A DNA stretch of 64,000 nt, taken from Paramecium tetraurelia (Eukaryota). Below are positions 25,296 through 29,348 of the stretch, one piece after another. The position numbers were made by a program, and so were the translations under genes. The notes below the pieces were generated by a model. That model was not told the DNA's origin and made no database searches. It saw only the letters and a program-made list of their open reading frames with translations. The DNA lies in NCBI GenBank assembly GCA_000165425.1, contig CT868045.1, forward strand, positions 62,001-126,000, written 5' to 3'. How positions within the stretch are numbered: position 1 is the first letter of the stretch; the number at the start of each line of letters is the position of its first letter.

Positions 25296-26720
25296 TCAGA
25301 TTATAGGCAAATTTTAAGCTGGCAAACTCTAATTCCGATTATTTCGTTTCTGATTTGGCGAATGTTCAATTAGCACTGGCAATTGACTGATCCTTCTCTA
25401 TTGCAAATAAGGAGTTTCCTCCTAAGAGAGTCTTCGATATCGTTATTTTAGTTATTGATAAATGGGCACTTCCTTCTAATATTCAAGTAGGATCTTGGCA
25501 ATCACATTCCTATCAGAATAGTTATGTGCCTTCTTATGCTTCCCAGAATAGTTTATTGAATACTATTATTCTTTAATTAATATATAAATACTTAAAAGCA
25601 ATTCCTATTCTGCCAGGTATTAGGAAATTCTAGTAGGGTTTGGAGAAGACTACTATGAACCAGCTCCTAGAGTTGTTTGTCTATTTCTGTTGATGGTCTC
25701 CTGGGTGTCACTATTTTAATGGGCCTCCGTTTTATATTTTTGATTGCTGTAATTAGCTTTGGGTAACATGTTTGCAATGGAAATTTAATTTTTAGGGAAT
25801 ATGATAGTATTTAGCAACTTGCTTTGATCTTCGATTGTTTGTGTTTTAAATCTATTAAAATATGGGAGTTCACTTAAGGCTTAGGATGTGGGTCTTAAGT
25901 GTGTTTGGACTTACAACATCATCCTTATGACATTTTGTAAATCTTAGGAATATTGGGAGGGAAGTCTTGGATAGAGACCTACATGTTATGTTGTCTGGAG
26001 AAATACCTTTGATTACTTTCTTGTACAGTCCTTCCATGTCTTCTGCTCTAAATGGAGGTTTGAGAGCAGCCATTTCGTAAGTTACACATCCCAACGACCA
26101 GATATCAGATTTCTGATCATAGGGCTGATCCTTCCACACCTCAGGACTTGCATAATAGGGTGTTCCTGTTTGTGTGTAAAGCAATCCCTTTTTGGCTACC
26201 TTTGAAACATTCATGTCTCCCAGTTTCACATCTCCATTTGATTACAAAAAAATATTTGCACTTTTTAAGTCTCTATGGAATATTTTTAAATCATGCAACG
26301 CTTTTAAACCACTAGCAATTTGAAAAGTAATTTTCATAATGTCATTTTCAGGCATAAATGTATTTGATTTGATACATTTCTAAATTTGCTAGAACAGGTC
26401 TCCATTATCAGCAAGTTCCATCACGATACTGTTGTATAATTATTAAATATCATTACCATAATGAATTGCTGTTGACATCAATGAAGGCTTCTTTGTAGCT
26501 GATTATAAAGGGGTGTTTAATAGAAGCCAATATTCTAACTTCGTTTAAAGCATTTTATTTCTCCTTATCACTCAAGTTTGTTAGGTTAACCTTTTTCAAG
26601 GCGTATTCTGCATTGTCCTCAATTCTTCTCACTTTATACACTGTTGAGTAGGCTCCCTCACCTATTATATAAGTAAACTAAACCTAATTTTGACATAATC
26701 TTGAAATCTTTAAGTGACAT
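25296..26720 (-). CDS. NIMA-related (NEK) protein kinase
   Basis: GEGAYSTV, YALKKV, ALNEVRILAS, HRDLKSANIF, KLGDMNVSKV, TQTGTPYYASPEVW. Confidence 0.95.
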
Positions 26721-26752
26721 TTATAATTATTTAATATATATATTAATAATCA

Positions 26753-27066
26753 TCATGCTTTCTTTCCACTCTTTCCTTTTTAAGCACTGCCTTTCTTATT
26801 TGAGTTCTTGACTGCACTCTTCTTTACTGATTTCTAAGTGCTTTTTTAAGTACTCTTTTGAGTAGATTTTTTTGCAGAATCCTTCTTTGCAGATGCAACT
26901 GGAGTCTTTGGTGCAGGTGCTGCAACATCAACCTTTGCAGGTGAAGCAGCTGGAACTTATTTTTTAATTTTTTTTGTAGCTGATCCACTTTCTAATAAAT
27001 TTTATATCATTTGAATTTACTTTTTCCTGATTTGCTTTAACTTCTGCTCTTTCCTCCTTTTGCCAT
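26753..27066 (-). CDS. Small Lys/Ala/Ser/Pro-rich basic protein, histone H1-like (94 aa, one 29-nt intron)
   Basis: MAKGGKEQKLKQIRKKSGSATKKIKKQVPAASPAKVDVAAPAPKTPVASAKKDSAKKSTQKSTQKSTQKSVKKSAVKNSNKKGSAQKGKSGKKA; 28 of 94 residues are Lys. Confidence 0.75.
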
Positions 27067-27456
27067 ATTTATTATTTATTATCACTTTCAAATTGAATTC
27101 TGCTAAATATCAAATTTACAATTATAAATTAATTTAATTGGCTATTTCTTCAAAATAATGAATATTAAAATCAATCACATATTTTGATCCATTTCATTCA
27201 ATAAATTCATATTTACAATTTGGATAATTTCCATTCCTAGTATTTTCCACTCAAGATTTTCAAAATTCACAGGATCTCCTCCTCCAAGAACTCCAAATCC
27301 AGCAATTTATTCCTCATCATTAAAAATTCTTGTGTATATATATTCCTAAAAATTACGTTTGAAATTTTCTGTATTTTTGTTCAATTCTATTTAATTGAAA
27401 GATCTCAATAATCCTTAGAAATAATAGTTGATTTTTAATTAAATTTATTCCTTATT

Positions 27457-29348
<1,892 letters not shown>

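What the first reader, a model, noticed from the sequence alone, without database searches (positions are those of the whole stretch)
26753..27066. Candidate globular-domain-less linker histone H1-like protein
A 94-aa protein with ~30% Lys, rich in Ala/Ser/Pro, almost no acidic and no aromatic residues. It has SPAK and KTP CDK-type sites and a triple KSTQ repeat. Tetrahymena macronuclear H1 likewise lacks a globular domain and, as I recall, Paramecium is usually described as having no identified H1 ortholog. Such a low-complexity protein would evade homology searches.
Basis: partly seen in the sequence, partly recalled or inferred. Interest (0 to 1): 0.7.

Follow-up and report, generated by a model that had tools for sequence, protein, structure and literature searches.

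The report
Candidate missing Paramecium linker histone
A real, well-expressed Paramecium gene encodes a tiny, floppy, very positively charged protein with no detectable relatives, and its histone-like make-up and promoter make it a plausible but untested candidate for the linker histone H1 that this ciliate is thought to lack.

Summary
The gene is real. It lies on the minus strand with one 29-nt intron confirmed by RNA reads, and encodes 94 residues (28.7% Lys, net charge about +25, no aromatic residue, predicted disordered). Its RNA is 13-46 times deeper than the neighbouring kinase's. A genome-duplication twin is kept at 96% identity (dN/dS 0.08). Five large-collection searches found no relative, although Paramecium histones are in the protein collection. 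No H1 globular domain was found in the genome, and four papers state that Paramecium has no identified H1.

New evidence: a CCAAT box 75 nt upstream, at the position used by core histone genes. RRCCAAT at -95..-60 occurs in 26 of 32 core histone genes and 1 of 78 control genes. The box differs at a base that all the histone boxes keep, and scores low on their matrix (background 3-5%), so this support is modest.

Against: the 151-bp nucleosome repeat leaves almost no linker DNA, homology to Tetrahymena Hho1 was not shown, and only one of the two CDK-type sites is a full consensus.

Best reading: an H1-tail-like chromatin protein made with the histones (about 50%). Localisation is untested.

The parts
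27021..27066 (-). Exon 1 (ATG, 15 codons plus 1 base; basic Gly/Ser/Lys N-terminus)
   Evidence: identical in the twin; reads end at 27064
26992..27020 (-). 29-nt GT..AG intron (28 nt in the twin, with a diverged interior)
   Evidence: junction loose ends in RNA runs X22 and X23
26753..26991 (-). Exon 2 to the TGA stop; residues 17-94 are protein P0001
   Evidence: peak RNA depth 32/248/192 in bin 26836-26956
26888..26956 (-). Pro/Ala-rich, low-charge hinge (residues 28-50) holding all 5 prolines and both S/T-P sites
   Evidence: 2 basic, 1 acidic, 5 Pro, 8 Ala in 23 residues
26933..26944 (-). SPAK, full CDK consensus (S32)
   Evidence: kept in the twin; 31% of shuffles have one
26900..26905 (-). 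T45-P, minimal proline-directed site (no basic residue at +3)
26834..26869 (-). Three tandem KSTQ units (residues 57-68); the only predicted helix overlaps them
27131..27144 (-). CCAAT box 75 nt upstream of the ATG; 13 of 14 bases match the box of four H2B genes, with T at a position where the histone boxes have C
27098..27176 (-). Upstream block conserved between the twins (51 nt identical at 27098-27148); likely promoter
25296..26720 (-). Downstream neighbour: protein kinase gene, NIMA/NEK-like by recall; ATG 32 nt after the candidate's stop; separate, weaker transcript (context only)
27457..29348 (+). Divergent upstream neighbour: kinase with EF-hand-like C-terminus, CDPK-like by recall (context only)

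Best explanation
An abundant, intrinsically disordered polycation made together with the core histones, which binds DNA or chromatin electrostatically as the C-terminal tail of histone H1 does: a lineage-specific functional analogue, or unrecognisable ortholog, of the globular-domain-less H1 proteins of Tetrahymena and trypanosomes. Shown: gene, splicing, expression, purifying selection, composition, predicted disorder, an imperfect CCAAT box at the histone position. Inferred: (1) a CCAAT-binding factor (NF-Y type, by recall) couples it to histone synthesis; (2) it enters the nucleus; (3) two basic arms (residues 1-27 and 51-94; 26 of the 28 Lys/Arg) screen or bridge DNA phosphates on or between nucleosomes, needing little free linker; (4) proline-directed phosphorylation in the low-charge hinge loosens binding, as the phosphate charge patch at residues 35-54 of Hho1 does.
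For: Lys:Arg 27:1, Ala/Ser/Pro-rich, no hydrophobic core; pTM 0.15 with one short helix. Kinetoplastid H1 is a single Lys/Ala/Pro-rich domain. Twin kept at 96% identity, 13 synonymous vs 4 non-synonymous changes, dN/dS 0.079, like the neighbouring kinase domain at 0.075. RNA depth 13, 38 and 46 times the neighbour's mean. RRCCAAT at -95..-60: 26 of 32 core histone genes and both twins, against 0 of 29 Ras-family, 1 of 25 L7Ae-family, 0 of 20 tubulin and 0 of 4 PCNA promoters. Of 43 genome-wide matches to a 14-base pattern, 10 are core histone promoters and 2 are the twins. The ribosomal-protein promoter motif (21 of 25) is absent. No PF00538 domain found in the genome. The S/T-P sites (32, 45) lie about where Hho1's phosphorylation cluster lies; a resemblance, not an alignment.
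Against: The macronuclear nucleosome repeat is 151 bp, leaving a few bases of linker, which the authors take as a sign that H1 is absent. The box has T where all 31 histone boxes have C; its matrix score is 6.7 bits, below 33 of 36 histone promoters; 2 of 54 control promoters score higher, and 21 of 663 AT-rich and 132 of 2660 random windows reach it. The degenerate patterns were chosen after seeing this site, and histone genes are partly twins (21 distinct sites among 31). No similarity to Hho1 or any H1 was detected, and Hho1 was not retrieved for a direct comparison. Only one full CDK site against three in Hho1. Expression was not compared with a histone gene. Lysine richness alone is not diagnostic.
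Confidence: 0.5

Rival explanations
1. A basic disordered cytoskeletal, ciliary or membrane-associated protein that binds acidic tubulin tails or anionic lipids; the CCAAT box is a chance match.
For: Lys/Ala/Pro/Ser-rich repeats with S/T-P sites are also typical of microtubule-binding and lipid-binding disordered proteins (recalled). The weak matrix score is reached by 3-5% of background windows. Paramecium has an elaborate cortex that needs abundant structural proteins (recalled).
Against: 0 of 20 tubulin promoters have CCAAT at -95..-60. The box sits at the histone position inside a 51-nt block identical in both twins. No Gly2 or C-terminal cysteine for lipid anchoring and no hydrophobic residues.
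Confidence: 0.2
2. A nuclear but non-linker polycation: a nucleolar or RNA-binding factor, or a histone-tail mimic whose Lys-Ser-Thr repeats act as a substrate or decoy for histone kinases and methyltransferases.
For: The composition filter that picks this protein also picks an H3 tail. The repeats resemble the Lys-Ser-Thr motif of the H3 tail and the N-terminus resembles the Gly/Lys-rich H2A and H4 tails of this genome (by eye). Almost no free linker DNA is available. Phosphorylated T. cruzi H1 is enriched near the nucleolus, so the categories can overlap.
Against: It lacks the ribosomal-protein promoter motif, has 1 Arg, no RGG and no aromatic residue, and matches no Pfam family.
Confidence: 0.17
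3. A micronucleus-specific or development-specific condensing protein, analogous to the basic fragments of Tetrahymena Mlh1 or to sperm basic proteins, rather than a macronuclear H1.
For: Micronuclear nucleosome organisation in Paramecium is unknown, so the 151-bp objection does not apply there. Expression differs 5-6 fold among three runs of one study (29, 192, 150 per million letters at the peak bin). Nine [KR]x[ST] sites, and micronuclear linker proteins of Tetrahymena use PKA sites (reference title seen).
Against: The micronuclei hold little of the cell's DNA (recalled), yet the RNA is fairly abundant. No HMG box or polyprotein context. The conditions of the runs are unknown.
Confidence: 0.11
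4. Not a protein gene: a spurious frame, or a 5' part of the downstream kinase transcript.
For: Absent from the protein collections that hold Paramecium histones; its stop is only 32 nt from the kinase ATG.
Against: Spliced junction reads, a 13-46-fold depth step at the gene's 3' end, frame-keeping indel and dN/dS 0.08 in the twin.
Confidence: 0.02

Closest known systems
Tetrahymena thermophila macronuclear linker histone Hho1
   Same: Ciliate, lysine-rich, no globular domain, largely disordered; phosphorylation sites clustered at residues 35-54 where this protein has its S/T-P hinge. Both genes have an intron (title of Wu 1986 seen; position not compared).
   Different: Hho1 is longer (a K154 is cited) with three CDK consensus sites against one here. 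No sequence similarity was detected and Hho1 was not retrieved. Tetrahymena's repeat length is 199 bp against 151 bp. Hho1's acid solubility, linker location and salt elution are shown; none is shown here.
Kinetoplastid single-domain histone H1 (Trypanosoma brucei, T. cruzi, Leishmania)
   Same: Single Lys/Ala/Pro-rich domain equal to the H1 C-terminal tail, CDK-site phosphorylation, able to compact chromatin without a globular domain.
   Different: Built largely of Lys/Ala/Pro repeats, whereas this protein is Ser/Gln/Gly-richer with a triple KSTQ unit. No homology detected. Distant lineage, so any likeness is probably convergent.
Canonical tripartite H1/H5 (Pfam PF00538), including Stylonychia and Oxytricha H1.1/H1.2
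   Same: Lysine richness of the tails (about 20% Lys overall in the Stylonychia/Oxytricha proteins).
   Different: No winged-helix domain in this protein and none found in the genome; 94 aa against 220-501 aa.
Tetrahymena micronuclear linker polyprotein Mlh1
   Same: Basic ciliate linker-type proteins without an H1 globular domain.
   Different: Mlh1 is a large HMG-box polyprotein cut into fragments; this is a stand-alone 94-aa gene with no HMG box.

Membership tests
Canonical H1/H5 | Winged-helix globular domain (PF00538) | tested here: not met
   No Pfam match for exon 2; no fold predicted; exon 1 is only 15 codons; no PF00538 match in the genome, where the first look gave 0 candidates and introns are ignored.
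Globular-domain-less H1 (Hho1/kinetoplastid type) | Small, lysine-rich, Ala/Pro-rich, few acidic or aromatic residues | tested here: met
Globular-domain-less H1 (Hho1/kinetoplastid type) | Largely disordered | tested here: met
   Single-sequence model of residues 17-94: pTM 0.15, one 9-residue helix; no Leu/Phe/Trp/Tyr/Cys.
Globular-domain-less H1 (Hho1/kinetoplastid type) | CDK consensus sites, phosphorylated in growth | tested here: inconclusive
   One full and one minimal site, kept in the twin; 31% chance level. Phosphorylation not testable.
Globular-domain-less H1 (Hho1/kinetoplastid type) | Sequence homology to Hho1 | tested here: inconclusive
   No hit; whether Hho1 was among the scored candidates is unknown, and composition correction blunts such searches.
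Globular-domain-less H1 (Hho1/kinetoplastid type) | Histone-level abundance and co-regulation with core histones | tested here: inconclusive
   High against neighbours but no histone gene was laid; promoter box at the histone position but imperfect.
Globular-domain-less H1 (Hho1/kinetoplastid type) | Nuclear location, perchloric-acid solubility, release at moderate salt, linker association | not testable with these tools
   Features listed for Hho1; need bench work.
Globular-domain-less H1 (Hho1/kinetoplastid type) | Loss decondenses chromatin or enlarges the nucleus | not testable with these tools
   Phenotypes described.
HMG-box / Mlh1 linker proteins | HMG box | tested here: not met
   No Pfam match; no fold.
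Ribosomal-protein regulon | A[AT]GAT[AT]T motif within 45 nt of the ATG | tested here: not met
   21 of 25 L7Ae-family genes, 0 of 2 twins; motif defined here by eye.

The most novel reading that the evidence does not exclude
This gene pair is the unrecognised linker histone of Paramecium: a 94-residue tail-only H1, missing from public protein collections, co-regulated with core histones through a CCAAT box, that binds chromatin with almost no linker DNA. It would overturn the working view that Paramecium lacks H1 and break the inferred link between a 151-bp repeat and H1 absence.
Probability: 0.33. Interest if true: 0.8.

Novelty: new variant of a known kind. Interest (0 to 1): 0.6.

Why it matters
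Four papers seen here (PMC8997361, PMC8997360, PMC9670198, PMC11789628) build on the absence of a detectable H1 in Paramecium to explain its very short nucleosome repeat, condensation-free gene silencing and the constraints on DNA elimination; one allows that an Hho1 homolog may be too divergent to identify. This gene pair is a concrete candidate that one tagging and one double-RNAi experiment can test. If right, it is a model for what an H1 tail does without linker DNA. If wrong, it is still an abundant, strongly conserved orphan protein.

Tried and rejected
Homolog searches with exon 2 (P0001) found nothing: 90%-clustered collection at near, longer and shorter lengths (502, 1755 and 16 candidates, none scored); 50% representatives (1 hit, an unrelated 603-aa repeat protein, rejected); metagenome contigs (595 pattern matches, 0 confirmed); Pfam; PDB (1 hit at E 0.18, rejected). 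No ESM Atlas result and no protein-level search of the own genome are available, so older paralogs with diverged DNA remain possible. DNA search gave 2 copies only. No lysine-rich gene lies upstream of 7 older kinase paralogs examined (L192-L197, L203). No indexed run holding the stretch is on record as RNA (no evidence either way). The 17-base promoter pattern with 1 mismatch (20 matches) and the 12-base pattern (186 matches; 28 of the first 30 not clear promoters) were uninformative by count, because the reversed control has a different dinucleotide make-up. The dN/dS of the upstream kinase was discarded (synonymous sites saturated or intron included). The 41-nt alternative intron was rejected on junction reads. 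The idea that CCAAT marks all S-phase genes was rejected: PCNA genes use another motif. Eight earlier scan notes returned describe H1-like basic proteins of bacteria and archaea and none bears on this gene; the place look-up was empty. The search for trypanosome H1 SPKK papers gave nothing relevant.

Full report
Organism and gene. The window lies in a 72-Mb, 697-contig genome that reads with the ciliate code; three of its histones are listed as Paramecium proteins, two under P. tetraurelia names. The finding is a minus-strand gene: exon 1 at 27066-27021, a 29-nt GT..AG intron, and exon 2 at 26991-26753, giving 94 residues. It has 27 Lys, 17 Ser, 14 Ala, 5 Pro, 2 Asp, 1 Arg and no Glu, Leu, His, Cys or aromatic residue; pI 11.1, charge about +25. 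It divides into a basic N-terminal arm (10 Lys/Arg in residues 1-27), a Pro/Ala hinge with both S/T-P sites (28-50) and a basic tail with three KSTQ units (16 Lys/Arg in 51-94). A single-sequence model of residues 17-94 has pTM 0.15 and one short helix.

It is a real gene. Three stranded poly(A) runs of one study cover it on the expected strand. Loose ends at both intron edges carry the other exon's letters in two of the three runs. Peak-bin depth is 32, 248 and 192, against means of 2.5, 6.6 and 4.2 over the downstream kinase, roughly 29-190 RPKM over all letters read. About a quarter to a third of reads at several diagnostic positions carry the twin's letter, so both copies are expressed and these depths partly include the twin. 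No histone gene was laid, so 'histone-level' is not shown. A DNA search finds exactly two copies. The twin (L002) keeps both flanking kinases, 96% of residues, 13 synonymous against 4 non-synonymous changes (dN/dS 0.079; neighbouring kinase exon 0.075) and a frame-keeping indel. That is strong constraint for a disordered protein.

No relatives found. Searches with exon 2 returned nothing credible. As a control, the protein and its twin score E 1e-27 or better at these database sizes, and histones of this genome and of several other Paramecium species are in the collection (3 of 3 looked up). So neither the protein nor a close ortholog appears to be held there. Missing annotation or filtering of low-complexity sequences would both explain this; I could not tell which, and could not consult ParameciumDB. 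No H1 globular domain was found in the genome (six-frame search blind to introns, 0 candidates).

Promoter. The twins share a 51-nt identical block upstream and 91% identity over 110 nt, like histone and ribosomal-protein pairs and above nearly all Ras pairs. The block holds a CCAAT box at -75/-74. Core histone genes carry CCAATCA at -65 to -91 in 31 of 32 cases. The set is 26 of the 30 fetched PF00125 loci plus 8 H4 loci; 4 loci were dropped for unclear start or identity, and 2 divergent H3 genes, which lack the box, were set aside before the count (31 of 34 with them). Both H2A.Z-like genes also have it. RRCCAAT at -95..-60 is in 26 of 32 histone genes and both twins, against 0 of 29 Ras-family (1 of 30 loci dropped), 1 of 25 L7Ae-family (1 of 26 dropped, 1 start doubtful), 0 of 20 tubulin (10 of 30 without a picked start, 3 picks doubtful) and 0 of 4 PCNA promoters: 1 of 78. 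Plain CCAAT there is in 4 of 78. The candidate's 14-mer matches four H2B boxes at 13 positions. Of 43 genome-wide matches to a pattern covering both forms, 10 are histone promoters, 2 are the twins, and the other 31 looked by eye mostly like coding sequence, one (L141) possibly a promoter. A CCAAT-containing element is also reported for Tetrahymena intergenic regions (passage citing Brunk and Sadler 1990).

The promoter evidence has limits. The one mismatch hits the C that all 31 histone boxes keep. On a matrix built from the 21 distinct histone sites the candidate scores 6.7 bits, below 33 of 36 histone promoters; 2 of 54 controls score higher and 3-5% of background windows reach it. The degenerate patterns were chosen after I saw the site, and the twins are not independent. 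I weigh it as a several-fold shift toward histone-type regulation, not proof. The ribosomal-protein motif is absent (0 of 2 against 21 of 25).

Literature (passages seen by term search unless noted; no supplements read). PMC8997361: no macronuclear H1 identified, an Hho1 homolog absent or too divergent. PMC8997360: repeat length 151 bp, absence of H1 suggested as the cause; micronuclear organisation unknown. PMC9670198 and PMC11789628 repeat this. PMC6957481 and PMC2173238: Hho1 lacks the globular domain, is acid-soluble and linker-located, with five sites in residues 35-54. PMC7460583: three of them CDK consensus. PMC3486875: single-domain trypanosome H1 compacts chromatin. PMC4122937, section 27 read whole: H1 in Stylonychia and Oxytricha. 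PMC11754650, PMC2636879, PMC2709106 and bioRxiv 10.64898/2026.09.19.752804: promoter passages. Searches (listings) showed no report of a Paramecium H1 or of this protein; the library lacks most subscription and older papers, and proteomic supplements could bear on the claim.

Mechanism and verdict. The best reading (0.5) is an H1-tail-like chromatin polycation supplied with the histones, binding through two lysine arms and tuned by phosphorylation of the hinge. Every step from nuclear entry onward is inferred. It is not a canonical H1 (globular domain tested, not met). Membership of the tail-only H1 kind is open: composition and disorder are met, the biochemical features are untested. The main objection is the near absence of linker DNA in the macronucleus; a tail-only protein could bind nucleosomal DNA or bridge fibres, or act in the micronucleus. 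Rivals: cytoskeletal or membrane polycation (0.2), non-linker nuclear or nucleolar protein or tail mimic (0.17), micronuclear or developmental condenser (0.11), not a protein (0.02). Interest 0.6: it makes a stated open question directly testable, but function rests on composition, constraint and one imperfect promoter motif.

Noticed in passing
Histone loci L023-L051, L083-L090, L188, L189: Core histone promoters share a CCAATCA box 65-91 nt upstream of the ATG, forward in H3, H2B and H2A.Z-like genes and reversed in H2A and H4. The promoter-survey passages seen do not mention it.
   Followed up: partly
PCNA loci L204, L205, L207, L208: All four PCNA promoters share a different two-part motif (an ACCC-G/A-GCAAATC element, E2F-like by recall, plus ATTTCCCTCT) and lack RRCCAAT.
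   Followed up: no
L7Ae-family loci L151-L176: 21 of 25 promoters carry A[AT]GAT[AT]T within 45 nt of the ATG; it resembles the reverse complement of the AAATCTTT candidate motif in the preprint seen.
   Followed up: partly
window 26721-26752: Only 32 nt separate this gene's stop from the kinase ATG, so the kinase promoter probably overlaps this gene's 3' end; the arrangement is kept in the twin.
   Followed up: no
window 26753-27066, runs X21-X23: Depth per million letters differs 5-6 fold between X21 and X22/X23, against about 2 fold for the neighbouring kinase; the conditions are unknown.
   Followed up: no
window 26964-27044: Four reads in X22 (3 starts) jump back 81 bases; possibly a template switch or a small circle.
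   Followed up: no
L030 (H3), L034 and L036 (divergent H3): These three H3 genes lack the CCAAT box, suggesting different, perhaps replication-independent or developmental, control.
   Followed up: no
L002 end of exon 2: The twin reads TAA (Gln) before its TGA where the window copy has TGA TGA, adding one residue.
   Followed up: yes
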